64,000 bases of DNA from the UHGV virus genome UHGV-0242533, one strand, 5' to 3'. Positions 20,311 to 43,741 of the stretch are shown here, one piece after another. This stretch comes from a virus. Positions within the stretch are counted from its first letter, which is position 1. Each line of letters begins with the position of its first letter. The translations under genes and the position numbers were made by a program. Below the pieces are notes generated by a model, which searched no databases, was not told the DNA's origin, and was given only the letters and a program-made list of their open reading frames with translations.

Positions 20311-20319
20311 GAGGTTATC

Positions 20320-24147: not shown

Positions 24148-24149
24148 GT

Positions 24150-24383
24150 ATGGAAATTCGTAAGATGATGCTGGATAATGTTGTAACTACTCGACGTATC
24201 CCGATGACGAGCACAGGATGTGACAACCTTCGTGCAATCCAGAAGTGGATGCAAGCTGGTATTGGTCAAGTACTTGAAACACAGGTTGAGGTTCCTTTCC
24301 CAACGGTGATCAACAACGTGCTTGCTGATTATGTAAAAATCAAAGGCATTAAGGTAGAACCTCATGTCAAATCTGGTTCCTAA
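24150..24383 (+). CDS. hypothetical protein (77 aa)
   Basis: ORF. Confidence 0.5.
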   Translation: MEIRKMMLDNVVTTRRIPMTSTGCDNLRAIQKWMQAGIGQVLETQVEVPFPTVINNVLADYVKIKGIKVEPHVKSGS

Positions 24384-24588
24384 GAAACCAAAGATCACTC
24401 TCCTACAGTATTACATGGGAGTTCATATCGAATTAGTAACGGAGCAGCGAAAGCTGTATCCGTTCGCTTTCGGTCTGATTGATGCACCATCCGATGAAGT
24501 AGAGAACGATGCGTTCAACGACTACTTCGAAATTGAAGCTCAGATTCAAAAAACTCGTAACGAAATTCTTAAACTTAAAGGTATCTAA
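24364..24588 (+). CDS. hypothetical protein (74 aa)
   Basis: ORF. Confidence 0.5.
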   Translation: MSNLVPKKPKITLLQYYMGVHIELVTEQRKLYPFAFGLIDAPSDEVENDAFNDYFEIEAQIQKTRNEILKLKGI

Positions 24589-24590
24589 CA

Positions 24591-25784
24591 ATGACTACTC
24601 GTATCCGTGTTCTTCCTTATGGTCCTTCTGATTCAGTTCGTGAACTTACTTCTGCAATTAACACTAAGATTCAGGAACTTCGCTTAAACGCTAACGTAAT
24701 GTCTCTGGTATCAGAAGGCTCTCGTTATCGTTCTCGAGTTGGTGATATTGTTGTCAACTATGGAAACCGTCGATACAATGATTCTTTCTTTGGTGGGGCA
24801 ACTGTATTGAACTCTGTGGTTGCCTTGAACCGAGCAGCTAATAAGATTGCAGCATTTAACGCATTGCGTTTAGCTGAAGTTAAAACTGTTGAATACACCA
24901 CTGATCGTGAATTAGCTCTGAACTGGAACCAGAACGAAATTGTTTACGAACGTGCAACATTAACTGGTCACTCTGGTGAAGGTATCACTGTTCGTCTTCC
25001 GACAGAAGGTGTTGCAGATGCCCCTCTATACACCAAAGGTATTCAAGGCCCACGTCGTGAATGGCGTGTTCATGTATTTGAAGGTGTTATCACTTACGTT
25101 CAGAAGAAGATTCGTCGTAATGGATACCGTGATCTGTCAACCTATCGTGAAGACATTCGCAATCACCATACTGGTTGGGTTTATTCCTCAAACTTCCAAG
25201 ATGCACCACCTCCTCAAGTATTGATTCAAGCTCACAAAGCTGTAGAAGCTCTTGGATTGAACTTTGGTGCTGTTGATCTAATAAGCAAAGTTTCTAACGC
25301 TTGGGTTCTGGAAGTAAATACTGCTCCTGGGCTGACTGGTACAACTCTGGAAACTTACACTCATAATATTGTTGAGTTTGTTAAGAGCTTCTCTGGAGTT
25401 GATCCTGATTATCGTGTTGCTTACGAACTGCCTGTTGAAGAAGTGGAAGAGTTTGCTGAATCAGCAGATGACGAGAACTTTGCATTGACAGCTGAACCAG
25501 TTGTTGAAGAGTCTTCGGAGCCTGTTCCTGAAACAATGCAAGTGGAAGAACAAGGGTTAGAGATCAACCCTGTCACCCGTCGTACTTTACGTCGTGGTTA
25601 TTACATCGCTAATATCAAGCACCCTGAGAATGGTTCAACTGTAGCAAGTAATGTGATCTTGTTCTTCTGTGGTCGTAACTTCTACCGCTCTGGGTGGAAC
25701 GCACCGATTAGTGATCGCCAGCTTGGTCGTGTGTTGCAGATTAACAGTCTTACTCTGAATGATGGCACTGTTGTAAACTACTAA
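24591..25784 (+). CDS. ATP-grasp ligase (RimK/glutathione-synthetase-like) with acidic C-terminal extension
   Basis: EWRVHVF and AVDLI...VLEVNTAPGL motifs. Confidence 0.7.
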   Translation: MTTRIRVLPYGPSDSVRELTSAINTKIQELRLNANVMSLVSEGSRYRSRVGDIVVNYGNRRYNDSFFGGATVLNSVVALNRAANKIAAFNALRLAEVKTVEYTTDRELALNWNQNEIVYERATLTGHSGEGITVRLPTEGVADAPLYTKGIQGPRREWRVHVFEGVITYVQKKIRRNGYRDLSTYREDIRNHHTGWVYSSNFQDAPPPQVLIQAHKAVEALGLNFGAVDLISKVSNAWVLEVNTAPGLTGTTLETYTHNIVEFVKSFSGVDPDYRVAYELPVEEVEEFAESADDENFALTAEPVVEESSEPVPETMQVEEQGLEINPVTRRTLRRGYYIANIKHPENGSTVASNVILFFCGRNFYRSGWNAPISDRQLGRVLQINSLTLNDGTVVNY

Positions 25785-27152: not shown

Positions 27153-28640
27153 ATGTCAAAGATCATTTTGGGAGACACAGGTTGTAAGGAATGTATCTCT
27201 CATGGTCGTGATAAAACCCACAACCACATGATTCTCTTCCGTAACGAAGAGACAGGTGAGGAGTGGGGGAGTTGTAACCGTTGTGGGAATTACGAAGTGT
27301 TCGAAAAGGGCACTACACCTACTCCAAACGAGAAGAAAGAGCTATCCCCTGAAGAGTTAAGAGAAGTCTTAGACGATTGCTTAGAGCTTCCTCAGGGTGA
27401 ACTTACTCGACGTTTAATCCCTAAAGCCGTATCAGAGCGTTTTGAGTGTCGAATTGGTCTAAGTCAGACTGATGGTCAGACTCCAGACAGCTACTTCTTT
27501 CCTCGTGAACGTGATGGAAACATTGTCGGTTATGAGGTTAAGCTGCTTGACAGTAAGAAGTTCTATTACGTTGGCAGTGTGAAAGAAGCAGATTTATTTG
27601 GTATGGCACAGGCTCAGCGTGGAGATGTGTACAACAAGAAGCTGTTCATTTTTGAAGACCCGCTATCCTGTATGTCAGGTTTCCATGTCCTTACAGCTTT
27701 TACAAATGCAACAAACATTAAACCAGCATGTGTTTCTTTACCGTTCGGTGCAGGTTCAATCTCTTCTGTGTTGTCTCGTAATCGAGACTTCGTAAATGGT
27801 TTTGAGGAGGTTGTGCTCTGCATGGACAATGACGATGCAGGTGAGATAGCTTTAACAAAAGGTCGTTCTTTATTCCCTCATGTCAAGTTTGCTCGTATTC
27901 CTAAAGGAACCTTCCCATACAACGGTGTGGAGAAAGAGATTAAGGATGCGAATGACATGCTTCTGTCTGGTCGTGGTCAGGAGTTATTCAACATTCTCAA
28001 GTATTCAGCAAAGCGAGAATCTCCTGCTGGCGCTGTAACAATCTTTGATTGCCTTGATGATGCTCTGAAGAAAGCGGAGTGGGGTATTCCATATCCGTGG
28101 AAGACTCTGAATGAGATGACCTTTGGTATTCGATGGGGAGAGGTGGTAGCAATCGGTGGTGGTGTAGGTAGTGGTAAGACACTAATTGCTCACGAGCTGG
28201 TTGCTCATCTGTGCTTAGAGCATGGTTTTAATGGGGGTGGCTTCTTCTTGGAAGAGAAGGTAGGCATGTCTGTTAAGAACATCGCTGGTAAGTCAGCATC
28301 AATTCCTTTCCACCGACCTGATGTTGAATATGATGAGGAGGATTTGCGTAATGAAGCACTTCGTTATGCAGACAAATTCTTCTTGTATGACAACTTCGGA
28401 CAGAATGAATGGGAAGACATTAAACAGTGTATCCGTTTCTGGGTAGTTGAAAACCAGTGTAAGTTCATCATCCTTGATAACATTACCGCTCTGGTATCTC
28501 ATTTAACACCTTCAGAGATTAACACTGAAATCAGTAAGATTGCTTCAGAGCTTGCTGGTATGTGTAAAGAGTTAGACTTTACCGCTTTCGTTCTATCTCA
28601 CCTTAATGCTCCGGCAGGTGGTGCTCCTCATGAAGAGGGT
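27153..28640 (+). CDS. DNA primase-helicase (T7 gp4-like), exon 1
   Basis: Zn finger C-x2-C...C-x2-C, primase region, Walker A GGGVGSGKT, SHLN...HEEG motif; the ORF hits a stop (28644-28646) inside the conserved helicase domain. Confidence 0.8.
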
Positions 28641-29436
28641 AAGTAACAAGCCCTCTATAAATTCTGTGAACTCAGGGGAACTCTAGAACAGACAATCCTG
28701 AGCTAAGCCTAGTAATAACCCTCCTATAAGGAGGTAATATGAAACAGTATCTTGGAAAATATACGGTTCATAAAGATGGACGAATAATCAGTCACTATAA
28801 CGGGAAGCCTTTAACCATCTCTCTTTACAAACCAAATAAACAGGGTAAGAAGATTGTTTATCCTAGAGTTAGGCTCTGTATTGACGGGAAAGGTAAATGG
28901 TTTGCACTACACAGGATTATAGCTGAATGCTATATCCCAAATCCAGAAAATCTTCCACATATAAACCATAAAGATGGAAACAGATTGAATAACTCTGTTG
29001 AAAATCTTGAATGGTGCAGTCATCTACAGAATATACGGCATGCCCAAGAACACAACCTCAACCCTAAAGGAGAGAGGCAAGGTATTGCAGTTGCAACTGA
29101 AGAGATTGTAAGGAGAATTAGAAGTTTAAGAAGGGGTGGTATGTCTTATAAAGATATCGCTGAGCTTGTTAAACTTAAGAGAAGAACAGTCGAAGCTATT
29201 GGTTCTTATCAAAACTGGAAACACATAGAGTGAGTGGTTATTACTAGGAAAGTGCAACGACTAGGGTGGGCGTAAGCCCGAAGTACAGCCAAGCGGTGTC
29301 ATTAACATTGACTTAAATGGAAGCGCAGAACCTTCAAATTGAAGTGAAGATATAGTCTGGTCTACATGGGGACATGTAGCAGTTCAGAGATAGAACCTGA
29401 ACGGGGTGTGATTAGCGATCACATCTGAACACAACG
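28641..29436 (+). mobile_element. group I self-splicing intron (about 0.8 kb) carrying an HNH homing-endonuclease ORF
   Basis: Host gene frame shifts by +1 across the insert; 3' region has AAGATATAGTC (near-canonical group I S element), GACTA/TAGTC P7 candidates and three stable hairpins; exon 1 ends in T, insert ends in G; boundaries approximate (+/- 6 nt). Confidence 0.6.
28739..29233 (+). CDS. HNH homing endonuclease (intron-encoded)
   Basis: H-x-H...N...N-x-x-x-N-L-x-W...H-x-x-N pattern (INHKDGNRLNNSVENLEWCSHLQN); strong RBS AAGGAGG. Confidence 0.8.
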   Translation: MKQYLGKYTVHKDGRIISHYNGKPLTISLYKPNKQGKKIVYPRVRLCIDGKGKWFALHRIIAECYIPNPENLPHINHKDGNRLNNSVENLEWCSHLQNIRHAQEHNLNPKGERQGIAVATEEIVRRIRSLRRGGMSYKDIAELVKLKRRTVEAIGSYQNWKHIE

Positions 29437-29739
29437 GGACAGGTACGTGAAGTACAGTTCACTGGCTCTCGTTCTCTTATGCGTTGGTGTCAGTGTATCA
29501 TTGGCTTTGAGCGTGACAAGCAAGCTGACGGCTTAGCTAAGAACCTCTCAGTCATTCGATTACTGAAAGAACGTAACTACGGTCAGACAGGTGTTTGTTA
29601 TACTAAGTATATCAGTGAAACCGGTAGACTTGTAGAAAGGGAAGACTTTGAAGTTGATGAAGATAATCCATTCGTTTTAACTAACGGAGAGGATGCAGCT
29701 TCTCTCGTCAACCAAGCAGATGGAGCTTCACCGTGGTAA
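29437..29739 (+). CDS. DNA primase-helicase, exon 2 (helicase C-terminal motifs)
   Basis: VQFTGSRS...[10 protein letters not shown] resumes the helicase motifs as recalled from T7 gp4; no in-frame start codon before these residues. Confidence 0.6.
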
Positions 29740-30290
29740 AGAAAAAGAAGAAAGTGTTTGCATTCGATATCGAGAGTAATGCACTGTACGATGACATAAC
29801 TAAAGTATGGTGTATTTATATCTTTGATGTTGAAACTGGTGAAAGGTGGGGCTATCGGCCTCACCAAATTGAAGATGGGATTCATAAACTTACAGAAGCA
29901 GATGTGCTCGTGGGTCACAATATTATTGACTTCGACCTTTGTGCTCTGAAGAAAATGTATCCCAATCTAATTGAATATCGTTTTAACGTCTTTGACACTT
30001 TATGTCTTAGTCGATATCTTAAACCTGACCGTATTGGTGACAGTCCTGAGTATCCGAAAGGCGACCCTAGACATGGCCCAAGAGGTCATGGCTTGAAGCA
30101 ATGGGGTGAGTTCTTAGGGGAACTTAAAGGTGATTACGGTGAGCAAGAGGAAGCATGGGATGCTTTCACTGAAGATATGTTTACTTATTGTGAACAGGAC
30201 GTTAACTTAACTGTTAAGGTTTATCTTTTCTTGTGTGAACTCACGGGATTTGACCCTTACGACCCACCTTCATTATATTGGAAAATGTAA
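29733..30290 (+). CDS. DNA polymerase I family, 3'-5' exonuclease domain as a separate gene
   Basis: FDIESNAL (Exo I), HNIIDFD (Exo II), YCEQDV (Exo III); own GTG start and stop. Confidence 0.8.
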
Positions 30291-30291
30291 A

Positions 30292-31662
30292 ATGATTGTT
30301 ATCCCGATTAACCGAATTGAAGATAAGGTTGCTCAACAACCTGATATTGCTGTTGGTCGTCACTTCATTGAACAGTTGATTAACAACAACTTGGTTCCAG
30401 ACGGTATCTGTCCCATCATTACTGGTGGGGCTGTTCGAGATGCTGTGCTTAATAACACAGCTCCACATGACATTGATATCTTTATTGTCAGAGGACAAAC
30501 ACCAAGAACTCAAAACACATTCATCCCAACTGATCGTTGGCAAGCTCTTGGAAGAGAGATTGAAAGTAATGTGAAGGAATGGCTAGAGTCACAAGATATC
30601 GAATATGCATCCCTTCTTGCTGAAGCTACAAACGAATCCTATGCTGGGGGTTCTCAATTAACATTCACTGATATTATTGAGTTTCAGTGGAATGGAACCC
30701 GCATTCAATTCATGTTTAATTATCCTACTTCTATTGAAGAGGTATTGGATAATTTTCCTATGATGTGCCGTGGTGCGATAACTCTTGACAGCTTATTCAT
30801 GACCCCTCATGGATATTTAGCTATGACCGCTCCTTGCCCTGTGGTTGTTTCTAGTCGTGAAATCAGATACGTTCACAAGAAGTGGCCTAATTCACAGGTA
30901 TTAAGATTCTCCGCTCCATCTGTTGCATATCAATATATGGCACAAACTCGATACCTTCCTACACCTCAACCAGTTAGTCATCTGGTCAACGAACGAGGTC
31001 AGGTTGCTCCTGTTGAGGATACAACAAGTGCTCAATATTGTGTTAACCGAGACATGAGTCGATTCTTTGGAATCCCTTACGAAGAAATTCAGTTAATGTC
31101 AAGTGTTCATGGCTCTGGTCAGATTCGTGCGTATTGGTCTGAAGGGTTGACGAATTTAACAACTAATACAGGAGGGGATCTCCTTGGTCGAGAAGAGGAA
31201 CCTAACCGACACAATGCAATTGAAGGGGTGTTTGTAGCCCCTGCAATGCGTCGAGCACAAGAGTCACGAAGAGTAAGCCCTACTCGTAGAACATCTTTTG
31301 AAGAGGCTCTTGGTGTTACTAGCGATTCATTTGAGCAGTGGTTGTCTAGACGTTCTAATGGTCTGTCAAATGGTTTGACTGCTAGCCGTCACCAGTTCTC
31401 TGGTCAGGGTTTTGCTGTTGGTGATATTGACCAAGCTGCTCGTGTTATATGGACTGATGAAGCATCTGCTCAAGATGTGGTTAATAATCTCGCCGATCTT
31501 GATATTCCTTCTCATGGCGAGCTAGCTGAGACTGTCAGTCGTAGTCTCGCTGATCGCTTTGTTGCTGATAACCCTGAAGTATTAGAGCCTCAAACCAATA
31601 CAATTAGTGTTGCTGACGTAGTTGGTGATGGATTCTCTTTTTACGCACGAACAAATAACTAA
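30292..31662 (+). CDS. Pol-beta-superfamily nucleotidyltransferase with CCA-adding-enzyme/poly(A)-polymerase-like head motif
   Basis: GGAVRDAVLNNTAPHDIDIF matches the GG-x-VRD...P-x-D-x-D signature; downstream 400 aa unrecognised. Confidence 0.6.
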   Translation: MIVIPINRIEDKVAQQPDIAVGRHFIEQLINNNLVPDGICPIITGGAVRDAVLNNTAPHDIDIFIVRGQTPRTQNTFIPTDRWQALGREIESNVKEWLESQDIEYASLLAEATNESYAGGSQLTFTDIIEFQWNGTRIQFMFNYPTSIEEVLDNFPMMCRGAITLDSLFMTPHGYLAMTAPCPVVVSSREIRYVHKKWPNSQVLRFSAPSVAYQYMAQTRYLPTPQPVSHLVNERGQVAPVEDTTSAQYCVNRDMSRFFGIPYEEIQLMSSVHGSGQIRAYWSEGLTNLTTNTGGDLLGREEEPNRHNAIEGVFVAPAMRRAQESRRVSPTRRTSFEEALGVTSDSFEQWLSRRSNGLSNGLTASRHQFSGQGFAVGDIDQAARVIWTDEASAQDVVNNLADLDIPSHGELAETVSRSLADRFVADNPEVLEPQTNTISVADVVGDGFSFYARTNN

Positions 31663-32893: not shown

Positions 32894-33223
32894 ATGTTAG
32901 ATTTGAGTAAAGTGGCCCCGCCCACTGAAGAGATTACAAAATCCAAGGTGATGCAACAGTTTTATCATCGTGATATGCTTGGTCGCTTTATCAAGAATCG
33001 TGATGTTGTTGCTTGGTCTATTGGTAATCAGGGATATCTGTTGAAGGTTCTTCAGGTTACAGGTTCAACTGCTAAGCGAGTTAAGGTGTATGACCCTGAA
33101 ATGGGGCGTTCTAAGTCAGTAGACCCACAGAACTGCATCGTAATTACCCAGCAGGTAATGGATAATATTGCACGTAACGTTGCTAACTCAGTTGAACTTG
33201 ATGGAGAAAACCCAAATGCATAA
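32894..33223 (+). CDS. hypothetical protein (109 aa)
   Basis: ORF. Confidence 0.6.
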   Translation: MLDLSKVAPPTEEITKSKVMQQFYHRDMLGRFIKNRDVVAWSIGNQGYLLKVLQVTGSTAKRVKVYDPEMGRSKSVDPQNCIVITQQVMDNIARNVANSVELDGENPNA

Positions 33224-33779
33224 GAATGTTTTTGATTTACCTGATATTGGTCGTTCAGAATATAACATGTTAGACCGGTCTGAGCTTTCAATCTCTCGCC
33301 TTGAAACAATGCAGGGTATGATTAGTGGAAACAGCCTAGAACACATCCTGAGCTGCTTGCAAGCTAACATGGAACTCTTGCATATCAAAGCTAAAAACTA
33401 CCACTGGAACGTCTCTGGTGCAGGATTTCAGGGTGTTCATGGTATGTTTGACGAGCTGGAAGATTACGCACGACAGGTAGGAGATCGTATTGCTGAACGT
33501 ATGCGTTACCACTGTGTTAAAGTGGACGCTACAGCAGCTAACTACCTCTCTCATGCTTGGTTCTCAGAGGGTAACGCTGATCTAGACATGGACGGTATGC
33601 TCTCTGATATGTGCATGACCTTGATGTGTATTATTGAGAAGATGGATGAGTTTGATGGCGATTTAGCCACTTACCCTGTCGATCAGAGTATGCTTCAAGA
33701 AATTAATGAAGGTCTTGGCAAGTATTGCTACTTCGTCAAGAGCAACATGTCCCATTCAAGTGGTGACGTGTCTTACTAA
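33216..33779 (+). CDS. Dps-like ferritin-superfamily protein
   Basis: KAKNYHWNVSGAGFQGVHGMFDE...DRIAER signature; ATG 33216 with GGAG RBS. Confidence 0.65.
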   Translation: MHKNVFDLPDIGRSEYNMLDRSELSISRLETMQGMISGNSLEHILSCLQANMELLHIKAKNYHWNVSGAGFQGVHGMFDELEDYARQVGDRIAERMRYHCVKVDATAANYLSHAWFSEGNADLDMDGMLSDMCMTLMCIIEKMDEFDGDLATYPVDQSMLQEINEGLGKYCYFVKSNMSHSSGDVSY

Positions 33780-33839
33780 AACCTCCGCCCTGTCTCCTAA
33801 CCCGAGGTGGGGCGAACTTATTTATAAGGATATAGATAT

Positions 33840-34019
33840 ATGTTATCAGCAATCGTATGGGGTATTTGGGCTATCTTTATCGGTGGTGGTATTTATTGGG
33901 CTTCTGGTAAGCTTATTGAAGAAACTCCTGATAAGAAAGGTGAGATTCAAACAGCATCAACCATCATGGTTATCGTAGCTGTTGTTATCCCGTTCCTGCT
34001 TCACCTCCTGACTGCATAA
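33840..34019 (+). CDS. small two-TM membrane protein (59 aa)
   Basis: Not in ORF track; hydrophobic segments. Confidence 0.4.
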   Translation: MLSAIVWGIWAIFIGGGIYWASGKLIEETPDKKGEIQTASTIMVIVAVVIPFLLHLLTA

Positions 34020-34027
34020 GGATTTAC

Positions 34028-34303
34028 ATGTCTAAAGTAATTAAGTTTTATAGTGATCAGTGTGCTCCATGTAAAGCAATGGCTCCTACCTTTGAGAAGG
34101 TTGTTAAGGAGTTTGATGTAGAAGTGGAAGAGATTAACATCCTTGAAGGTGATGGTCGTGAACAAGCTGTTAAGTATGGTGTACGAAGCATCCCTGCTTT
34201 CGTTGTGCCTGACCGTAACAGTGGTGCACACTACAGCCTCTCTGGTATGCAGACTGAAGCAAACCTGAAAGCATTTTTGGACACAGCCCTGAGCAATAAG
34301 TAA
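34028..34303 (+). CDS. thioredoxin-like protein (CAPC active site)
   Basis: FYSDQCAPCK, SIPAFVV motifs; 91 aa. Confidence 0.7.
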   Translation: MSKVIKFYSDQCAPCKAMAPTFEKVVKEFDVEVEEINILEGDGREQAVKYGVRSIPAFVVPDRNSGAHYSLSGMQTEANLKAFLDTALSNK

Positions 34304-34318
34304 TAAGGATATTCACGG

Positions 34319-34975
34319 ATGAATGAACAACTACAAGCAACATTAATCGAAGCTATGGGAAGCGATCGTAGCGTAGTAAACGCAGCTCGAGTTTCCTTTG
34401 GCGTAACCCGTGAAGGTGATTTAAATGAACGTGATGAACGTCTCATCAACTTCCTCGCAAGAGAGAAGCATGTTACCCCATTCCGACATCCGCAAGTCAG
34501 TTTCCGATGCAAAGCACCTATCGCAATTGCGAGACAGTTGGGCAAGCATCAGGTTGGATTCTCGTGGAACGAAATGTCCCGGCGGTATAAAGATGGAGAA
34601 GTTGAAGTCTTCATCCCTAAAGAGATTTTTGCGAGACCTTCGGACCTCCATGCAGGTTCAGGGACACAGCTCATCGACGGAGAACGAGCTGAAGCATTAA
34701 TGTTGATTAACGATGCATATGAAGCTTCTCTAGCAGCATATGACAAGTTGATTGAGTTTATTGCACCAGAGCAAGCTCGATTTGTTCTTCCTCAGGGAAT
34801 GATTACTGAGTGGGTGTGGACTGGTTCTTTGTATGGATGGTTTGAGTTGTGCCGTCAACGACTCTCCTCTCATGCTCAGTATGAAGTTCGAGTGTTTGCT
34901 AAATCCTTAGATGAAGAAATGGCTAAACTCTACCCAATCTCATGGGCAGCTCTGAAGAAAACCTTGGAGAATTAA
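34319..34975 (+). CDS. thyX: flavin-dependent thymidylate synthase ThyX-like protein (variant signature KHQ-x7-S-x-RY)
   Basis: FRHP...QLGKHQVGFSWNEMSRRY and RFVLPQG...YEVR regions. Confidence 0.65.
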   Translation: MNEQLQATLIEAMGSDRSVVNAARVSFGVTREGDLNERDERLINFLAREKHVTPFRHPQVSFRCKAPIAIARQLGKHQVGFSWNEMSRRYKDGEVEVFIPKEIFARPSDLHAGSGTQLIDGERAEALMLINDAYEASLAAYDKLIEFIAPEQARFVLPQGMITEWVWTGSLYGWFELCRQRLSSHAQYEVRVFAKSLDEEMAKLYPISWAALKKTLEN

Positions 34976-35120
34976 TATTGGAAGAAGATGATGATGTGTT
35001 CTGCACTAAATGTGGGATGACAGTTGAGGATGCATATGACCCAAGTGTAGAAATTTGTCCATGTTGCGGAGTATGTGAATATTGCTGTTCCAACAACTCA
35101 GAGGATTAGCAGGAGAAAGA

Positions 35121-35306
35121 ATGGATAAGAAAGTGTGCAGCTTCTGTAAGAAAGAGAAGCCTATCGCCAACTTTAAGTTTAATCCTGTAACCGGTTTGAC
35201 TCATGTCATGTGTCACTCTTGCAGGATATACCTTGAAACAAAGCACACCATTAACAGGTTGCACTATTATCACCCAACAACATTCAAATTTAAGGTTGTG
35301 AAATGA
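35121..35306 (+). CDS. small zinc-finger protein
   Basis: CSFC...CHSC; start ambiguous (track 35082). Confidence 0.45.
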   Translation: MDKKVCSFCKKEKPIANFKFNPVTGLTHVMCHSCRIYLETKHTINRLHYYHPTTFKFKVVK

Positions 35307-35632
35307 TTGACAGTAATACATTTAGGACTTCAAATGGAAGTGAGATAAGTCCCGCTGAAGTAATTAATCGGCACAGAAGGCAATTGATCATCCATTCCTA
35401 TTTGTATTACTGGTTGGATGACCCTATCTGGTCTGACGATAAATGGCAACAAGTTGCTAATGACCTAGTGGAGCTGCAAGCCCTGTATCCAGAGCCTACT
35501 GGAGTCTTTGACAATGAATTCAAAGATTGGGATGGTTCTACAGGGATGCACTTCCCACACAATGAGGCTGTTGCTTGTATGGCGACAGCTGTTTACAGGA
35601 TTCATAAAGATATGAACCATGAAGTGCTCTAG
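35303..35632 (+). CDS. small protein resembling the N-terminal (Ia) domain of NAD-dependent DNA ligase
   Basis: HSYLYYWLDDPIWSDDKWQQVANDLVELQALYPEP resembles the LigA N-terminus as recalled. Confidence 0.4.
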   Translation: MIDSNTFRTSNGSEISPAEVINRHRRQLIIHSYLYYWLDDPIWSDDKWQQVANDLVELQALYPEPTGVFDNEFKDWDGSTGMHFPHNEAVACMATAVYRIHKDMNHEVL

Positions 35633-35804
35633 ATGTGAAGGAACAAACCTTCATTTAAGTAACAAGGTTATCAGAGAGCTTGCCAAAGGCTCTCCAACCA
35701 AAGGGAAGAACAAACGATTTACTAACGTCAGGGTTTATACAGCAATCTGTAAAGACTGCTTAACCACTGAGTGTCATTACGAAGAAATTGGAGAGCGTAA
35801 ATGA
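35619..35804 (+). CDS. small zinc-ribbon protein
   Basis: CSRC...CKDC. Confidence 0.45.
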   Translation: MKCSRCEGTNLHLSNKVIRELAKGSPTKGKNKRFTNVRVYTAICKDCLTTECHYEEIGERK

Positions 35805-36538
35805 GTCGTCGTCAATCACGGAAAGAATCACGGAAAGACCTTCGTCGGGAAGCACTTGTTACTCGTAAGGGTAAGCGAGAGTATGAAGAGGTGGTTTTAG
35901 CAAAGCCTGTAGTCCCTCAGAACCAGTTTCAGTCTGAGCTACTCAATGCTATTAAGACTAAACAAGTTGTGTTCACAGACGCTCCTGCGGGCTGTGGTAA
36001 GACCTTTGTAATCACTTCCACGGTTATCGATGCACTGAAGAGTGGTAAGATTCAGAAGATCATCCTGAGTCGACCTTCAGTTGGCATGGGTAACTCTCTT
36101 GGGTTACTTCCGGGAGGAATGCGTGAGAAGTTTGAACCATACCTGATGCCTATCATTGATGTTATTACTCAGCGATACGGTAAGGGATTCTATGAATGCC
36201 AAATCGGAAATGGTAACATTGAATTTGTACCTCTGGAATATCTCCGTGGTCGCTCTTTCAATGATGCCATTGTTATCGTAGATGAGTTCCAGAACACAAC
36301 TAAGGATGAAGCCTTCTCCATCATGACTCGATTGGGAGAAACCTCTCAATTGTTCTGTATGGGTGATACAAACCAGCATGATATGCGTGGTCGCGAGAGT
36401 GGTCTAACTTGGGCTACTAACTTTATTGATGAACACGATCTGTATGAGTTTGCTGAGATTGTAGATGGTGAATCAGATGATATTGTTCGTTCTGGTTTCT
36501 GTAAGGCGATTGTTAAAGCAATGGAAAAGAAAGCTTAA
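35801..36538 (+). CDS. phoH: PhoH-like ATPase
   Basis: Walker A APAGCGKTF, Walker B IVIVDEFQN, GDTNQHD. Confidence 0.75.
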   Translation: MSRRQSRKESRKDLRREALVTRKGKREYEEVVLAKPVVPQNQFQSELLNAIKTKQVVFTDAPAGCGKTFVITSTVIDALKSGKIQKIILSRPSVGMGNSLGLLPGGMREKFEPYLMPIIDVITQRYGKGFYECQIGNGNIEFVPLEYLRGRSFNDAIVIVDEFQNTTKDEAFSIMTRLGETSQLFCMGDTNQHDMRGRESGLTWATNFIDEHDLYEFAEIVDGESDDIVRSGFCKAIVKAMEKKA

Positions 36539-36549
36539 ACAGTAACTTA

Positions 36550-36558
36550 TAATGTATA
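36550..36558 (+). promoter_or_regulatory. phage-type promoter element TAATGTATA
   Basis: Exact 9-mer 37 nt upstream of ATG 36595; same 9-mer at 41307 and on the minus strand at 50680. Confidence 0.45.
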
Positions 36559-36594
36559 CTCCTTAGTGTACACTGATATATTAAGGAGTTCTAA

Positions 36595-36912
36595 ATGGCA
36601 GACCATGTAGGAAAGAGAGATTATGCACAAGAAAGACGTACCGCAATTGCCCGTGGTGAAACAGGCGTTGGGAGCAAGAGCGGAGATGCTCAGCGCCACC
36701 GTGCACGTCGCATCGTTGAAAAGCGCGATGGAAAAGCTGCTGTCAGAGGTAAAGACGTTGGACACAAACGAGCTGTCAAGTCTGGAGGCTCTAATGCGTC
36801 AAGCAACTTACGTGTTGAATCAGTCAGCTCAAACCGTTCAAACGGCGGCAAAAGTGGTGATCGAGCTGGAAAAGCAGCTGGAGCACGCAAAGGGGCTTTA
36901 AGCTCATCGTAA
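36595..36912 (+). CDS. basic Gly/Ser/Arg/Lys-rich low-complexity protein (105 aa)
   Basis: ATG with AAGGAG RBS directly after promoter element; an overlapping ORF in another frame (36623..36901) also looks protein-like. Confidence 0.45.
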   Translation: MADHVGKRDYAQERRTAIARGETGVGSKSGDAQRHRARRIVEKRDGKAAVRGKDVGHKRAVKSGGSNASSNLRVESVSSNRSNGGKSGDRAGKAAGARKGALSSS

Positions 36913-36917
36913 TATGA

Positions 36918-36950
36918 GGCTACCCAAATGGGTGGCCTTTTCTTTTATAT
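36918..36950 (+). terminator. rho-independent terminator
   Basis: GGCTACCC-AAAT-GGGTGGCC + TTTTCTTTT. Confidence 0.6.
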
Positions 36951-36980
36951 AAACCAAAATAAACTTCTTAGGTAATAAAT

Positions 36981-37235
36981 ATGTCTATTGTAAAAATCGT
37001 AAATATTTTTGATGTAACCAGAGATGGCAAGATTGTTAAGTGGACTTTCACTAACCACCACAACAAATCAAACAAGATCATCGAACGGATGATTGAGATT
37101 AACCCAAAAACAGCTCGCACTAACGTACTCCTTCGCGGAGCTGATGGAAAATTTATCTCTTATAAGAATAAGAACGTAGAAAAATCTTTCCGTGTTGCAG
37201 TAGAAAATCTCATCCCATTCCCTAAAGGAGTTTAA
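36981..37235 (+). CDS. tandem-paralogue protein (copy 1 of 2)
   Basis: KTARTNVLLRGADGKFISY...AVENLIPFPKG. Confidence 0.6.
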   Translation: MSIVKIVNIFDVTRDGKIVKWTFTNHHNKSNKIIERMIEINPKTARTNVLLRGADGKFISYKNKNVEKSFRVAVENLIPFPKGV

Positions 37236-37236
37236 T

Positions 37237-37521
37237 ATGAATAAGTTAGCTATGGTTCAAATTCGGGACACATACACTAACCGCCCGGAGCAGAAACCGC
37301 GTACTTGGTCTTATCTGTTGGCTGAAAGTAAGACTATTGACAAATACGCTGTAGGGATTGATACTATTCCAACTAGTGTCACATTACTCCCTCACAAAAC
37401 AGCCAGAACTAATGTGATGTTACGTGATAGCAAAGGTAAGTTTATCTCTTATCGTGATTCAAGAATCAATAATGAAATTAAATCTGCTGTGGAATTTTTG
37501 ATGCCATTCCCAAGAGGTTGA
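37237..37521 (+). CDS. tandem-paralogue protein (copy 2 of 2)
   Basis: KTARTNVMLRDSKGKFISY...AVEFLMPFPRG. Confidence 0.6.
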   Translation: MNKLAMVQIRDTYTNRPEQKPRTWSYLLAESKTIDKYAVGIDTIPTSVTLLPHKTARTNVMLRDSKGKFISYRDSRINNEIKSAVEFLMPFPRG

Positions 37522-37524
37522 GTT

Positions 37525-37938
37525 ATGCCATTACCAGCTAGACACCAAAACCGTTTCCTAGTTCTAAAGTGGGATGATATTGAAATGAATCTCACTGAGC
37601 ACGAACTAGATTTGTTCCATGAATTATTATCAGAGATTCGCTCTGGTATTCCTGAACGTCAGTATGTTGTTATCAGTGATAAACACCCTCAAGAGTTTGA
37701 AGAAGCTTGGGGCATGAAGCTGGCCTACATTCAGAGAGCTATTAGAGAAAGAGAAGAAGTTGCTAATCAGAGGGTTGTGGCCCATCTGGTACGAGAGCAG
37801 CCTCGTGGGGTTAGGTCTTCTTATTCTCCATCTACTTGGGCACAAACAAATGCAGCAATGAGATCATATGCTGTTGATTCCACATCATTGGATGTAGTAG
37901 AAGATAACCAAGCATTTACAGATTTACTTTACCAATAA
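37525..37938 (+). CDS. hypothetical protein (137 aa)
   Basis: ORF. Confidence 0.6.
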   Translation: MPLPARHQNRFLVLKWDDIEMNLTEHELDLFHELLSEIRSGIPERQYVVISDKHPQEFEEAWGMKLAYIQRAIREREEVANQRVVAHLVREQPRGVRSSYSPSTWAQTNAAMRSYAVDSTSLDVVEDNQAFTDLLYQ

Positions 37939-37954
37939 TTTAAAGGAGTATAAA

Positions 37955-39799
37955 GTGAGCAACCCGGACGCTCTTCCATTTTTGACAGAGATGACTGTCG
38001 CTGATATAATCTCTAAGCAAGCAAAGCACGGAGTGAGTTTCAACCGAAGAAATGCTCGGTGGTATGTTCACCTCCTTAAAGAGATTATTGTTAATATTGA
38101 CAGAGAGTTGATTCCTCTCTTACCTAAGATGAGATTAGATGGCTCTACTTACATGAAGCCGTTTAAGAAGTCTGGAGCTTTACAGAAGTGGCCTCAAGCC
38201 TATTGTGATAGGGTTGGGCTGAAGAGAGAAGATATTGGTGGAGCTTTCACCTGTGTCGAATACGTAGACTTTGACCCATCGAAAGATGCACGAGTTAAAG
38301 AAGCTCTTATGGATGAGGGCTTTCTTCCTCCAGAGTTTAACGTATCTAAGAAGCCTTGGAATACTTTCGAAATTAAGAAAGATATGAGAAAGTATGGAAC
38401 ATACCAAGCATGGTATACTGCTTGGATGCGAGGTAATGCTAAGCAAAAACAGACAGCCGAGATGGTTGACGCTGATATTAAGAAGTTCTTAGAAAAGCAT
38501 TTCAGGTTTAAGACTAAGAATTACATGAAGGCTTACGTATTTGGTTTGGGGTTGAACCCTAATCGCCGTAATCCTGTAACGTTTGATGAGATTAAGAAAG
38601 CACTAGCCACATCAAACAAGTGGCCTACAGCTCCTACAAACCTCGAGGAGACTCTTGAAGAAGGGTTAGGGGGTGAGCTAGGGAGTGTCGGAAGTTTGCT
38701 TAAGAAACGCGTTGTAGCGGCTCACAGGCTAGGTCTTATCAGTGGACTCATAGCAAAGGAGCGCGAAGATGGTAAACTTTCGGCAGAAGCTAACAGCTGC
38801 GCTACGCCGACTTTTCGATTCAAACATCGTATCGTGGTTAATATTCCCTCCCGTGGTCTGTTTGGTCACGAGTGTCGCAGTTTGTTTGAGTCTGACTATA
38901 ACTCAGACAGTGATCACTCTCGTCCTTTCGTTATTACTAACGTTGTTCCTGATGGTTGTTATATACGAAAGGGTACTAACGTAATTTACGAGAAAGGTAA
39001 GCCGGGGAAGAAAGACAAACCTGTAGGTGCTTACAAATATTACATACCCGCTGGTAAAGAAGTATTCTTAGGGTATGATGGTTCTGGACTTGAACTTCGT
39101 ATGCTCGCTCACTACCTCATCAAAGAGTGTAGAGATATGCTTGCTGAAGCAATCGAAGAGAACAATCCAGCTAAGAAAGCTCTGGCAGAACGCGGTCTAG
39201 CTTCTGCTATTATGTATCGTGATATTCTCCTTGAAGGTGATATCCACTCCCACAACCAGAAACTTGCTGGTCTTCCTACTCGTGACAATGCTAAGACATT
39301 TATCTATGCATTCAACTACGGTGCTGGTGATGCTAAGCTTGGTTCAATTGTAGGTGGTGGGGCTGACGAAGGTTCAGTGATGCGAGCACGTTTCTTAGCA
39401 GAGAACCCATGTATTGCAATCCTCATTGATCGCATGACAGAGAAAGCTGCTCAAGGATACTTGATTGGTGTTGATGGTCGTAAGATTACAATGAGACGAG
39501 ATGCCACTGGTAAAGTTATGGTTCATAAAGCCCTTAATACACTCCTGCAATGTGCTGGTGCTGTTGTTATGAAATATGCTATGATGTTCCTTAACAAGTG
39601 GATTGAGAAGGATGGGGTTCGTTGTGCTAAGGTAATTGATATGCACGATGAAGGCCAGTTCTCAGTGAATCGTAATGATGTACAGAAACTCAAAGAGCAC
39701 ACTGAGCTTTGTGTTAAGAAGGCTGGTGAGTACTTGAACATGGAATGTCCTCTGGCTTCTGATTGTCAGATTGGATTAAATTGGATGCATACGCACTAA
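37955..39799 (+). CDS. DNA polymerase I family, polymerase domain as a separate gene
   Basis: Motif A DGSGLELR, motif B RDNAKTFIYAFNYGAG, motif C HDEGQF; GTG start with AAAGGAG RBS. Confidence 0.85.
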   Translation: MSNPDALPFLTEMTVADIISKQAKHGVSFNRRNARWYVHLLKEIIVNIDRELIPLLPKMRLDGSTYMKPFKKSGALQKWPQAYCDRVGLKREDIGGAFTCVEYVDFDPSKDARVKEALMDEGFLPPEFNVSKKPWNTFEIKKDMRKYGTYQAWYTAWMRGNAKQKQTAEMVDADIKKFLEKHFRFKTKNYMKAYVFGLGLNPNRRNPVTFDEIKKALATSNKWPTAPTNLEETLEEGLGGELGSVGSLLKKRVVAAHRLGLISGLIAKEREDGKLSAEANSCATPTFRFKHRIVVNIPSRGLFGHECRSLFESDYNSDSDHSRPFVITNVVPDGCYIRKGTNVIYEKGKPGKKDKPVGAYKYYIPAGKEVFLGYDGSGLELRMLAHYLIKECRDMLAEAIEENNPAKKALAERGLASAIMYRDILLEGDIHSHNQKLAGLPTRDNAKTFIYAFNYGAGDAKLGSIVGGGADEGSVMRARFLAENPCIAILIDRMTEKAAQGYLIGVDGRKITMRRDATGKVMVHKALNTLLQCAGAVVMKYAMMFLNKWIEKDGVRCAKVIDMHDEGQFSVNRNDVQKLKEHTELCVKKAGEYLNMECPLASDCQIGLNWMHTH

Positions 39800-39992
39800 A
39801 TTCAGAACTGAAAGACCGGAACACAAATGAACTAGTCTTATTGAGTAGTTCATCATAAGGAGATTGAAGTGGAAGAGATGCCATCGGATTGGTGTTATCG
39901 TCAAAGCGCCATCTGTAGTGAACAAGGACGTGCTGATGAAGCACAATACTATTTAGAATTAGCTGAATTATGGAAAGAGAGAGAGGAAAAGA

Positions 39993-42129: not shown

Positions 42130-42543
42130 ATGGAAGAAATCTGGAAAGATCACCCCCATCACGATTTCCTTTCCGTATCATCTTTTGGTAGAGTTAAGAT
42201 TAAGCCTTTCACAGCCATAACAAATAATGGTGGAGTCAGGCTTTTCGTAGGAAAACCATACAGCGGATACAGAGAGAAAGATGGAAGGATGGTATTTATA
42301 AACAGGAAAAGGAAGTTTAGGAAAAGGGTTCATATCTTAGTGTGTGAAACTTTTCATGGTGAGAAACCTTTCCCTAGAGCTGTTGTGATGCATCTGGATG
42401 ATAATCCGAGCAACAATAGAGCAGATAATCTTCAGTGGGGTTCCCAAAAAGATAACCTCAATACTGAATCTTTTATCGCCTACTGCAAATCGAGAGTTGG
42501 TGATGATAACCCTCGTATCAAAGGTATGCAGAAATTCATATAA
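42130..42543 (+). CDS. free-standing HNH endonuclease
   Basis: MHLDDNPSNNRADNLQWGSQKDN. Confidence 0.7.
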   Translation: MEEIWKDHPHHDFLSVSSFGRVKIKPFTAITNNGGVRLFVGKPYSGYREKDGRMVFINRKRKFRKRVHILVCETFHGEKPFPRAVVMHLDDNPSNNRADNLQWGSQKDNLNTESFIAYCKSRVGDDNPRIKGMQKFI

Positions 42544-42565: not shown

Positions 42566-42589
42566 AGCCACCTCCGGGTGGCTTTTTTC
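42566..42589 (+). terminator. rho-independent terminator
   Basis: AGCCACC-TCCG-GGTGGCT + TTTTTT. Confidence 0.6.
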
Positions 42590-42836
42590 GTTGGAGACAA
42601 CATGCAAAACACATTAAGTGATAACTTAGGGTTTATCATTTTCTCAGCTCTTGTATTCTTTGGTGGTATGAAGTTTAACGAATATCAAACAGACAGCAGT
42701 AATCTGGACAAAGAGAAGCACCAGCAAGAGTTAGAGATTGAAAGAAATAGAGCAGCTGATGAAGTTGCTCAGAGGGTTCTTACTGGTTTATCTAACTGGA
42801 AGAAGAACACGGAAACTGTTTATAAAGAGATGCACT

Positions 42837-43741
<905 letters not shown>

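What the first reader, a model, noticed from the sequence alone, without database searches (positions are those of the whole stretch)
35303..35632. Stand-alone 109-aa protein resembling the Ia domain of NAD-dependent DNA ligase
YLYYWLDDPIWSDDKW...LVELQALYPEP resembles the N-terminus of LigA as I recall it, but there is no adenylation domain. It may be a remnant, an NAD/NMN-binding module, or a modulator of host ligase.
Basis: partly seen in the sequence, partly recalled or inferred. Interest (0 to 1): 0.4.

Follow-up and report, generated by a model that had tools for sequence, protein, structure and literature searches.

The report
Stand-alone phage NAD-binding ligase domain
This small gene of a phiEco32-like E. 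coli phage encodes only the NAD-recognising "Ia" domain of bacterial DNA ligase plus a conserved tail, with no catalytic part; it belongs to a phage family already described in 2022 whose function has never been tested.

Summary
The ORF is real: 35303..35632, + strand, 109 aa. It matches Pfam PF22745 (Nlig-Ia) at E=9e-35. A profile aligns residues 18-66 to E. coli LigA 5-53. A confident AlphaFold model has LigA as its only specific structural match. The window is a phiEco32-like Kuravirus, and the gene is phiEco32 gp62, widely mislabelled "NAD-dependent DNA ligase". Neither the window nor the complete phiEco32 genome encodes a ligase catalytic body, so it is not a ligase or a split ligase. dN/dS of 0.05-0.17 and near-invariant residues across 150 cluster representatives rule out a decaying remnant. 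Iyer et al. 2022 (PMC9503650) already described solo Nlig-Ia proteins in 81 phages, using the orthologue ECBP2_0056 as their example, and proposed an NAD+ sensor or shield role. New details here: a strictly conserved C-terminal extension that LigA lacks; Y->W and D->Q changes at two LigA NAD-contact positions; recurrent location in replication/nucleotide-metabolism modules; and fusions to a DNA helicase (Rhodococcus phage ReqiPepy6) and to a zinc ribbon. Most likely it is a non-catalytic NAD+/NMN-binding accessory protein acting with DNA replication. Known family, untested function, modest interest.

The parts
35303..35632 (+). CDS of the solo Nlig-Ia protein (109 aa plus stop); orthologue of phiEco32 gp62 and ECBP2_0056
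   Evidence: ORF listing; Pfam PF22745 E=9e-35; 98% identical to phiEco32 gp62 and about 76% to ECBP2_0056; dN/dS 0.05-0.17
35348..35500 (+). Residues 16-66: two-helix hairpin equivalent to LigA domain Ia (E. coli LigA residues about 4-54). It carries the predicted nicotinamide-nucleotide pocket: Y35 (35405-35407), Y36, D45 (35435-35437), W48 (35444-35446) and Q49 (35447-35449).
   Evidence: hhalign register, query n = LigA n-13; helices 17-37 and 45-61 in the AF2 model; Foldseek superposition on LigA at about 1 A; conservation counts
35501..35620 (+). Residues 67-106: family-specific C-terminal extension absent from LigA. It contains the conserved block D70-x2-F73-x2-W76-x-G78-x-T80-G81-x-H83-L/F84-P85 (nt 35510-35557), followed by helix 88-106.
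   Evidence: E. coli LigA matches only positions 2-52 of the 92-position Pfam model, whereas this protein matches 1-90. F73 is 150/150, G81 147/150, T/S80 148/150, W/F76 147/150. The full-length fold recurs in small phage proteins in BFVD, whereas true LigAs align over only about 48 residues.
35121..35306 (+). Upstream neighbour (context only): 61-aa CxxC...CxxC zinc-ribbon ORF, homologue of phiEco32 gp63. Its stop overlaps the Nlig-Ia start codon.
   Evidence: (PHROG 15951, E=2.5e-45). No functional link is shown.
35619..35804 (+). Downstream neighbour (context only): 61-aa CxxC...CxxC zinc-ribbon ORF, homologue of phiEco32 gp61. It overlaps the Nlig-Ia 3' end by 14 nt.
   Evidence: (PHROG 14369, E=1.2e-45). 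No functional link is shown.

Best explanation
The gene encodes a non-catalytic, stand-alone member of the phage Nlig-Ia family. Its first two helices reproduce the domain Ia hairpin of NAD+-dependent DNA ligase, including the pocket that holds the NMN half of NAD+ in LigA. By homology, Y35 and W48 would stack on the nicotinamide, and D45, Y36 and Q49 would contact the ribose, phosphate or amide. A family-specific C-terminal segment, conserved as strictly as the pocket, either completes the ligand site or forms a docking surface. The protein cannot ligate DNA, because it has no nucleotidyltransferase domain and the phage encodes none. It lies in the cluster that phiEco32 work assigns to the middle expression class (ThyX, thioredoxin, dCTP deaminase, PhoH, DNA polymerase, primase-helicase). 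The phage has a primase-helicase, a polymerase and a 5'-3' exonuclease but no ligase, so it must rely on host LigA to seal lagging-strand nicks. I therefore propose that it is an NAD+/NMN-binding accessory factor of phage DNA replication or recombination. It would couple nicotinamide-nucleotide binding to a DNA-transaction enzyme, most plausibly by favouring adenylylation of host LigA (presenting NAD+ or trapping the back-reacting product NMN) or by regulating a helicase-type ATPase. Shown: identity, fold, solo architecture, absence of a ligase body, selection, genomic context and fusions. Inferred: ligand binding (about 0.7) and a link to replication, LigA or a helicase (about 0.45).
For: Homology and fold. 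Pocket conservation across 150 cluster representatives: Y35 148/150, Y36 148/150, D45 148/150, and position 48 always aromatic. No ligase body: tblastn of E. coli LigA against the window and the whole phiEco32 genome hits only the Ia segment. The one weak NTase-region hit is an amidoligase, PF14395. The phiEco32 annotation lists no other ligase. The part of the genome missing from the window corresponds to structural genes. Purifying selection. Core gene: about 94 of about 99 phiEco32-like records carry it. Replication or nucleotide-metabolism context recurs in unrelated lineages: Kuravirus ThyX...PhoH...Pol; Arthrobacter phage Adolin after DNA Pol I; Clostridium phage CS38 between NrdD and NrdG/primase; Erwinia phage Phobos near thymidylate kinase; and a gp32/gp59/RNaseH/PhoH lineage. 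Fusion of a solo-type Nlig-Ia to a PHROG-62 DNA helicase in Rhodococcus phage ReqiPepy6. Middle-class expression of this cluster in phiEco32: PMC8948821. Domain Ia confers NAD+ specificity and is needed only for LigA adenylylation: PMC4797296 and PMC1920237. Own reasoning: a 12-kDa protein could match the copy number of LigA, but it could not stoichiometrically shield a millimolar NAD+ pool.
Against: No binding or activity data exist for any family member. The equivalent of LigA Asp36, one of the five residues I recall as essential in E. coli LigA, is Gln here and varies across the family (Q 97, D 33, other 20), so the ligand may not be exactly NAD+/NMN. The helicase fusion is confined to one lineage, and unfused helicase orthologues have no adjacent Nlig-Ia gene. 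Host LigA already has its own Ia domain in cis, so a trans-acting copy has no obvious advantage. Context in a replication module is only circumstantial, since phage middle regions hold many unrelated genes. In one relative, a probable but sub-threshold Macro-domain gene lies next to the Nlig-Ia gene, which points instead to NAD/ADP-ribose conflict.
Confidence: 0.45

Rival explanations
1. NAD+ sensor or shield in the conflict with host NADase defences, as proposed by Iyer et al. 2022. The solo domain binds NAD+ and either reports depletion of NAD+ by host effectors (SIR2, TIR and similar) or protects NAD+ from them, independently of any ligase.
For: This is the published proposal for exactly this family, with an orthologue as its example. 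Pocket residues are conserved. phiEco32 also encodes a Macro domain. In the relative on L009, a probable Macro gene lies directly downstream of the Nlig-Ia gene. Gordonclarkvirinae are reported as highly resistant to the defence systems tested (PMC11990801).
Against: A sensor needs an output, and no effector domain or conserved partner gene was found. Stoichiometric shielding of a millimolar metabolite by a small protein is quantitatively implausible (own reasoning). The Macro gene is absent from this very phage although Nlig-Ia is kept. The gene sits in the middle/replication cluster, not among the early host-takeover genes. The known fusions are to a DNA helicase and a zinc ribbon, not to NAD/ADPr enzymes.
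Confidence: 0.28
2. A protein-protein adaptor or mimic that no longer binds a nicotinamide nucleotide. The Ia-like hairpin would serve only as a scaffold or docking surface, for example as a dominant-negative mimic that blocks closure of host LigA and shuts down host DNA repair or replication.
For: Two of the five LigA contact positions are changed in this clade (Tyr35 to Trp, Asp36 to Gln). The conserved C-terminal block has no LigA counterpart and could be an interaction surface.
Against: The remaining pocket positions are conserved in 148-150 of 150 representatives, which is hard to explain without a ligand. The phage has no ligase of its own, so inhibiting LigA would also block sealing of its own lagging strands. 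The Actinobacteria and Firmicutes phage members keep the LigA-like Y-D or F-D pair.
Confidence: 0.15
3. One subunit of a split NAD+-dependent ligase, with the catalytic NTase-OB body encoded elsewhere in the phage genome, as in T5-like phages whose LigA is annotated as subunits A and B.
For: Split NAD-ligases exist in T5-like phages (annotations). The gene is annotated 'NAD-dependent DNA ligase' in many records.
Against: tblastn with full-length LigA and with the LigA body against the window and the complete phiEco32 genome finds no NTase, OB, Zn, HhH or BRCT segment. Pfam scans of the 20 large replication-region ORFs show no ligase domain. The 133 Escherichia phage records with a LigA body that were sampled are phages of 107-122 kb, not 77-kb Kuraviruses. 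Iyer et al. report no ligase module in 80 of 81 such phages.
Confidence: 0.02
4. A non-functional remnant of a degraded phage ligase gene.
For: Only the N-terminal domain of a multidomain enzyme is present.
Against: dN/dS is 0.05-0.17 even at dS above 1. The gene is kept in about 94 of about 99 related genomes. There are 527 cluster representatives at E<=1e-10, with a median length of 113 aa and invariant motifs, including a family-specific extension. No ligase-derived sequence follows the stop codon.
Confidence: 0.01

Closest known systems
Solo Nlig-Ia phage proteins (Pfam PF22745; Iyer, Burroughs, Anantharaman & Aravind 2022, PMC9503650; example ECBP2_0056; phiEco32 gp62)
   Same: Direct orthologue: 98% identical to phiEco32 gp62 and about 76% to ECBP2_0056. 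It occupies the same syntenic slot between ThyX and PhoH, has the same solo architecture, and sits in a genome without a ligase.
   Different: Nothing essential. This copy has F84 where the family has a near-invariant Leu, and this phage lacks the Macro gene that phiEco32 has.
Domain Ia of bacterial NAD+-dependent DNA ligase (LigA, EC 6.5.1.2; e.g. PDB 2OWO, 5TT5, 1TAE, 1DGS)
   Same: Homologous two-helix hairpin, with about 47 residues at about 1 A RMSD. The equivalents of LigA Tyr22, His23 (Tyr here, as in Thermus LigA) and Asp32 are retained, and the Tyr35 position stays aromatic.
   Different: It is not attached to NTase, OB, Zn, HhH or BRCT domains, so it cannot form ligase-AMP. LigA Asp36 is Gln here. 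An extra conserved segment of about 40 residues (F73, W76, G78, T80-G81, H83, P85) is absent from LigA, which matches only positions 2-52 of the 92-position model.
Split NAD+-dependent ligases of T5-like phages (subunits A and B)
   Same: A phage-encoded, LigA-derived polypeptide that is not a complete ligase on its own.
   Different: T5-like phages encode the catalytic NTase-OB body, and Kuraviruses do not. No T5-like phage appeared among the homologues of this protein.
Rhodococcus phage ReqiPepy6/ReqiPoco6 gp102 ('DNA ligase', 541-542 aa)
   Same: Its N-terminal 100 residues are a solo-type Nlig-Ia with the same C-terminal motif (FDGSTGFHLP); Pfam E=1.6e-32, and 89 residues align at 1.3 A.
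   Different: It is fused to a PHROG-62 SF2-type DNA helicase (E=1.6e-63) within an endonuclease/exonuclease recombination module. It has F-D rather than W-Q at the LigA Tyr35/Asp36 positions.
Phage NAD+ countermeasures (NARP1, NARP2, NARP3; Macro, Nudix and other NAD/ADPr-network proteins)
   Same: All would be phage proteins that deal with nicotinamide nucleotides during infection.
   Different: Those are enzymes or transporters that rebuild NAD+ or process ADP-ribose. This protein has no catalytic domain, and there is no evidence that it restores NAD+.

Membership tests
Solo Nlig-Ia phage family (PF22745) | Significant match to the Nlig-Ia profile above the curated cutoff | tested here: met
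   119.7 bits against a cutoff of 27, E=9e-35, residues 16-102 on model positions 1-90 of 92
Solo Nlig-Ia phage family (PF22745) | Stand-alone architecture: one small protein with no NTase, OB or other ligase domain | tested here: met
   The protein is 109 aa, bounded by a stop codon, and the flanking ORFs are unrelated zinc ribbons.
Solo Nlig-Ia phage family (PF22745) | The phage genome lacks any NAD+- or ATP-dependent ligase catalytic module | tested here: met
   tblastn of LigA against the window and the complete phiEco32 genome finds only the Ia segment. No ligase domain was found in the large ORFs scanned. The phiEco32 annotation lists no other ligase. ATP-dependent ligases were checked only through annotation and Pfam scans, not by a dedicated query.
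Solo Nlig-Ia phage family (PF22745) | Conservation of the LigA NAD+-contact residues | tested here: inconclusive
   The equivalents of Tyr22, His23 and Asp32 are kept (Y35, Y36, D45). The Tyr35 equivalent is Trp, which is still aromatic. The Asp36 equivalent is Gln. So three positions are kept, one is conservatively changed and one is altered.
Solo Nlig-Ia phage family (PF22745) | Family-specific C-terminal extension with the F-x2-W-x-G-x-T-G-x-H-L-P motif | tested here: met
   Present at residues 70-85. The fold is shared with other small phage proteins at TM about 0.75.
Solo Nlig-Ia phage family (PF22745) | Actual binding of NAD+ or NMN | not testable with these tools
   This needs ITC, DSF or a crystal structure. 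No published data were found.
NAD+-dependent DNA ligase (LigA) | Nucleotidyltransferase domain with the motif I lysine (KxDG) that forms ligase-AMP | tested here: not met
   No match to PF01653. The protein ends at residue 109, whereas the LigA NTase domain spans residues 70-316.
NAD+-dependent DNA ligase (LigA) | OB fold, Zn finger, HhH and BRCT DNA-binding modules | tested here: not met
   All are absent. E. coli LigA shows all of them in the same scan.
NAD+-dependent DNA ligase (LigA) | N-terminal domain Ia | tested here: met
Split phage NAD-ligase (T5-like subunits A/B) | A partner gene encoding the NTase-OB body in the same genome | tested here: not met

The most novel reading that the evidence does not exclude
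The solo Nlig-Ia proteins are trans-acting, cofactor-sensing regulatory subunits for DNA-transaction enzymes. A phage copy of the host ligase's own NAD-recognition domain would dock on host LigA, bridged by NAD+, to keep it adenylylated for phage Okazaki-fragment sealing. Alternatively, it would couple NAD+/NMN status to a helicase-type ATPase, as a fusion in ReqiPepy6 and through neighbouring PhoH in Kuraviruses. Either would be a previously unknown way for ligase-less phages to commandeer the host replicative ligase or to gate replication on NAD+ availability.
Probability: 0.2. Interest if true: 0.65.

Novelty: already known. Interest (0 to 1): 0.3.

Why it matters
As a discovery this adds little. 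The family, its solo status and its absence of a ligase partner were published in 2022, with an orthologue of this very gene as the example, and Pfam has an entry for it. It still matters in two ways. First, about 94 Kuravirus-type genomes and hundreds of other phage records label this protein "NAD-dependent DNA ligase", and papers list it as the phage's ligase (for example PMC9965538). It cannot ligate DNA, so these phages must depend on host LigA. Second, the function is experimentally untouched, although the protein is small, soluble-looking, strongly conserved and core to an abundant, defence-resistant group of therapeutic-candidate coliphages. The details added here give concrete, cheap experiments that can separate the published NAD-sensor/shield idea from a replication- or LigA-linked role: the conserved C-terminal motif, the W-Q versus Y-D pocket variants, and the helicase and zinc-ribbon fusions.

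Tried and rejected
(1) Hidden ligase body. A weak tblastn hit of LigA residues 127-190 at window 19561-19719 (E about 0.6) turned out to be a phiEco32-type COOH-NH2 amidoligase, PF14395, so it is chance.

(2) Zinc-ribbon partner hypothesis. Homologue P0009 is a genuine Nlig-Ia plus Zn-ribbon fusion, seen on two independent contigs, and the window gene is flanked by Zn-ribbon ORFs. However, BLASTP shows no homology between the fused tail and either neighbour. The neighbours of solo genes in Erwinia, Clostridium, Arthrobacter, T4-like and T7-like phages are not Cys-rich. There is no conserved partner.

(3) Macro-domain linkage. phiEco32 has a Macro gene, but this phage has cleanly lost it. The Macro-like gene next to Nlig-Ia in L009 is sub-threshold (19.2 bits against a cutoff of 22) and unrelated to phiEco32's. 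This is inconclusive.

(4) Rosetta-stone test for the helicase fusion. Loci around unfused orthologous helicases in Arthrobacter, Gordonia and Lactococcus phages contain no Nlig-Ia ORF, so the fusion is lineage-specific.

(5) Fusion partners in longer family members (P0090, P0117, P0069 and others). They have no Pfam domain other than Nlig-Ia, and P0174 matched the Nlig-Ia model in two stretches, so it is probably a tandem duplication.

(6) Literature search for experiments. A 2026 NARP3 paper appeared to mention LigA 16 times, but these were 'ligand' and 'ligation'. The primary papers on the LigA Ia residues are not held in the library, so the roles of the five residues are cited from memory.

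(7) Phage sigma-factor promoter motif TAATGTATA. Its count in the window is not above chance (24 found against 20.5 expected), and no exact copy lies just upstream of the gene, so it was not used.

(8) Group I intron at the HNH insertion in the primase-helicase gene. There is no Rfam hit.

(9) Proximity of the C-terminal motif to the pocket in 3D could not be measured, because model coordinates are not exposed.

Full report
OBSERVATION. It contains YLYYWLDDPIWSDDKW and LVELQALYPEP at residues 33-65. Its start codon overlaps the stop of the upstream ORF (ATGA), and its 3' end overlaps the next ORF by 14 nt. It is therefore part of a tightly packed co-directional gene array: Dps-like, a small membrane ORF, thioredoxin, ThyX, small Cys-rich ORFs, this gene, a Zn-ribbon ORF, PhoH, further small ORFs, then DNA polymerase.

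IDENTITY OF THE GENOME. Window 33000-39800 is 96.7% identical to Escherichia phage vB_EcoP_SU10. It matches 99 phiEco32-like records, genus Kuravirus and relatives in the Gordonclarkvirinae. The protein is 98% identical to phiEco32 gp62 (ABY52863), which is annotated 'NAD-dependent DNA ligase'. About 94 of these roughly 99 genomes carry an orthologue at 60% identity or more, so it is a core gene of the group.

IS IT A LigA Ia DOMAIN? Yes.
- The protein hits Pfam PF22745 'Nlig-Ia, DNA ligase-like N-terminal NAD+-binding domain' at E=9e-35 over residues 16-102, and PHROG 6466 at E=7e-43.
- Single-sequence phmmer against PDB gives only weak LigA N-terminal hits (E about 0.08).
- A profile of 28 family members aligned to E. 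coli LigA gives hhalign probability 90%, E=1.5e-6, with query residues 18-66 matching LigA 5-53.
- E. coli LigA residues 4-54 themselves hit PF22745 at E=2e-11.
- An AlphaFold2 model (mean pLDDT 82.8, pTM 0.76; helices 17-37, 45-61, 70-73 and 88-106) has NAD+-dependent ligases as its top 26 Foldseek PDB hits, with about 47 residues superposed at 0.8-1.2 A.

IS THERE A LIGASE BODY ANYWHERE? No.
- tblastn with full-length E. coli LigA, and with residues 70-671 alone, against the window and the complete phiEco32 genome finds only the Ia segment.
- The single weak extra hit (window 19561-19719) is a phiEco32-type COOH-NH2 amidoligase.
- Pfam scans of the other large replication-region ORFs find primase-helicase, 3'-5' exonuclease, a nucleotidyltransferase, dCTP deaminase, sigma factor and 5'-3' exonuclease, but no ligase.
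- The phiEco32 annotation lists no other ligase.
- The roughly 13 kb of genome missing from the window corresponds to phiEco32 coordinates about 3.2-14.8 kb, which hold terminase-to-tail-fibre genes.
- LigA catalytic bodies do occur in 1,272 phage records. In T5-like phages they are annotated as split subunits A and B. The Escherichia records sampled are phages of 107-122 kb, not Kuraviruses.
- The 'split ligase' reading is therefore rejected, and the common database label 'NAD-dependent DNA ligase' is a misnomer. It is repeated in a genus-level paper.

IS IT A REMNANT? No. Nei-Gojobori dN/dS against phiEco32, WFI101126 and ECBP2 is 0.05-0.17, even where dS exceeds 1. An exhaustive profile search finds 994 cluster representatives at E<=1e-3 and 527 at E<=1e-10. 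Among the best 150, the median length is 113 aa and only five exceed 200 aa.

ANATOMY.
- In the hhalign register, LigA residue n corresponds to residue n+13 here.
- From my own knowledge of Sriskanda & Shuman 2002, five residues are essential for the reaction of E. coli LigA with NAD+. That paper is cited, but its text is not held.
- These residues map as Tyr22 to Y35, His23 to Y36, Asp32 to D45, Tyr35 to W48 and Asp36 to Q49.
- Across 150 representatives, Y35, Y36 and D45 are each 148/150. Position 48 is always aromatic (W 128, F 14, Y 8). Position 49 is variable (Q 97, D 33, other 20).
- Actinobacteria and Firmicutes phage members keep the LigA-like Y-D or F-D pair. The proteobacterial-phage clade, including this gene, has W-Q.
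- LigA matches only positions 2-52 of the 92-position Pfam model, whereas the phage protein matches positions 1-90. The family therefore has a C-terminal extension of about 40 residues that LigA lacks.
- The extension carries a motif conserved as strictly as the pocket: F73 150/150, W/F76 147, G78 126, T/S80 148, G81 147, H83 104, L84 140, P85 106.
- The full-length fold, extension included, recurs in small phage proteins in BFVD (87-92 residues at 1.2-1.5 A, TM about 0.75). Genuine phage LigAs align over only about 48 residues.
- I could not measure whether the motif lies next to the pocket, because model coordinates are not exposed.

CONTEXT AND FUSIONS.
- phiEco32 work assigns the cluster holding the DNA polymerase and nucleotide-metabolism genes to the middle temporal class (PMC8948821).
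- Divergent solo homologues also sit in replication or nucleotide-metabolism modules. Arthrobacter phage Adolin has one just after DNA Pol I and an HNH gene. Clostridium phage CS38 has one between NrdD and NrdG/primase. Erwinia jumbo phage Phobos has one near thymidylate kinase. A lineage with gp32, gp59, RNase H, PhoH and SNase has one. A T7-like phage has one directly after the RNA polymerase.
- No conserved partner gene emerged.
- Two fusions exist. P0009 carries a C-terminal CxxC...CxxC zinc ribbon in the same Dps-Trx-ThyX synteny, on two independent contigs.
- In the second fusion, Rhodococcus phage ReqiPepy6 gp102 (542 aa, annotated 'DNA ligase') is a solo-type Nlig-Ia (residues 16-101, E=1.6e-32) joined to a PHROG-62 DNA helicase (residues 98-538, E=1.6e-63). 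Its Pfam DEAD and Helicase_C hits are collinear but sub-threshold. It lies within an endonuclease/exonuclease module.
- Unfused orthologues of that helicase in Arthrobacter, Gordonia and Lactococcus phages have no neighbouring Nlig-Ia, so this fusion is lineage-specific.
- The 2022 survey uses the word 'helicase' only in unrelated contexts.

WHAT IS ALREADY KNOWN.
- Iyer, Burroughs, Anantharaman & Aravind (Viruses 2022, PMC9503650, section 3.5.1) report the Nlig-Ia domain 'as a solo protein in 81 phages', with ECBP2_0056 as the example. They note that, with one exception, these phages encode no ligase catalytic module.
- They state that the ligand-binding residues are conserved, and they propose NAD+ sensors that detect host NADase effectors or shield NAD+.
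- ECBP2_0056 is the syntenic orthologue of the window gene, lying between ThyX and PhoH at about 76% identity.
- Searches found no experimental study of any family member.
- The finding is therefore a rediscovery of a known, computationally defined family.

MECHANISM.
- Shown: this is a selected, stand-alone LigA-Ia homologue with a largely intact pocket, a conserved family-specific extension and no catalytic partner, located in a replication-phase gene cluster.
- From the literature: domain Ia (residues 1-69) confers NAD+ specificity and is needed only for step 1, formation of ligase-AMP with release of NMN (PMC4797296 and PMC1920237).
- Inferred: the protein binds the NMN moiety of NAD+, or NMN itself (about 0.7).
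- The phage has a primase-helicase, a polymerase and a 5'-3' exonuclease but no ligase, so its Okazaki fragments must be sealed by host LigA, which I take to be the only host enzyme built around this domain.
- Context and fusions point to DNA transactions rather than to NAD/ADPr enzymes. A small protein can match the abundance of LigA but cannot buffer a millimolar NAD+ pool.
- I therefore favour a replication/recombination accessory role that couples nicotinamide-nucleotide binding to host LigA or to a helicase-type ATPase (about 0.45). I rank it above the published sensor/shield role (about 0.28), a ligand-free adaptor or LigA mimic (about 0.15), a split ligase (0.02) and a remnant (0.01).
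- Points against my preference: LigA already has its own Ia domain in cis, the Asp36 equivalent is not conserved, the helicase fusion occurs in only one lineage, and a probable Macro gene lies next to the Nlig-Ia gene in one relative.

VERDICT. The novelty class is 'already known': a published family with a Pfam entry, and an orthologue used as the type example. Interest is modest (0.3). The value lies in correcting a widespread mis-annotation and in a cheap, well-defined set of experiments on an untested, strongly conserved phage protein.

Noticed in passing
L014:3959-5587 (Rhodococcus phage ReqiPepy6, NC_023735.1 70167-71795): The annotated 'DNA ligase' (542 aa) is a solo-type Nlig-Ia domain fused to a PHROG-62 SF2-type DNA helicase. 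It is not a ligase. The fusion is not mentioned in the 2022 survey of the family.
   Followed up: partly
L009:4001-4504 and L010:1732-2235 (ENA metagenome contigs): A 167-aa homologue (P0009) fuses Nlig-Ia to a C-terminal CxxC...CxxC zinc ribbon, in the same Dps-Trx-ThyX synteny. In the window the gene is flanked by separate Zn-ribbon ORFs (35121-35306 and 35619-35804), and an 8-Cys 55-aa ORF lies at 34942-35109. No sequence homology was detected between the fused tail and the neighbours.
   Followed up: partly
L009:4858-5352: The gene directly downstream of the Nlig-Ia/Zn-ribbon fusion is a probable Macro domain. The Pfam hit is full-length but sub-threshold (E=1.2e-3, 19.2 bits against a cutoff of 22), and it is unrelated at BLAST level to phiEco32's Macro.
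   Followed up: partly
window about 43091-43101: The Macro-domain gene of phiEco32 (gp37, 'Appr-1-p processing') is cleanly absent from this phage. The sequences flanking it in phiEco32 abut here, and tblastn finds no copy in the window.
   Followed up: yes
window 27153-29739: The primase-helicase gene appears split into 27153-28646 (497 aa) and 29479-29739 (86 aa). Between them is an insertion of about 800 bp (28641-29436, relative to phiEco32) carrying a free-standing HNH_3 endonuclease ORF (28739-29233). Rfam detects no group I or II intron. A second HNH ORF (42130-42543) is inserted between the gp40 and gp39 homologues.
   Followed up: partly
window 35552-35554 (residue 84): This copy has Phe at position 84, where the family has Leu in 140 of 150 representatives, including phiEco32, ECBP2 and WFI101126.
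   Followed up: no
window 17333-25784: A cluster of an amidoligase (PF12224), a phiEco32-type COOH-NH2 ligase (PF14395), a glutamine amidotransferase and an ATP-grasp enzyme, together with several unannotated 200-400-aa ORFs. This is presumably the known phiEco32 peptide/metabolite-modification module.
   Followed up: no
window 9264-10058: An ORF combining collagen triple-helix repeats with a YadA-like membrane-anchor domain. phiEco32 annotates its counterpart (gp119) as 'agglutinating adhesin'. This is an unusual bacterial-adhesin-like protein in the early region of a lytic podophage.
   Followed up: no
window 42578-43097: An ORF with an N-terminal transmembrane segment (42578-42952) overlaps an out-of-frame ORF with a lipobox-like LVMTTSAC (42738-43097). 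This resembles an Rz/Rz1 spanin pair located just upstream of the phage sigma-factor gene. It was not verified.
   Followed up: no
window 30235-31662: A 475-aa ORF between the 3'-5' exonuclease and dCTP deaminase genes has a weak PolyA_pol-head nucleotidyltransferase match (E=7e-4). It corresponds to the conserved 'nucleotidyltransferase' that the BASEL paper notes in the Gordonclarkvirinae replication locus.
   Followed up: no
window 13283-13356: A single tRNA gene (Rfam, 62.5 bits), corresponding to the tRNA-Arg annotated in phiEco32.
   Followed up: no
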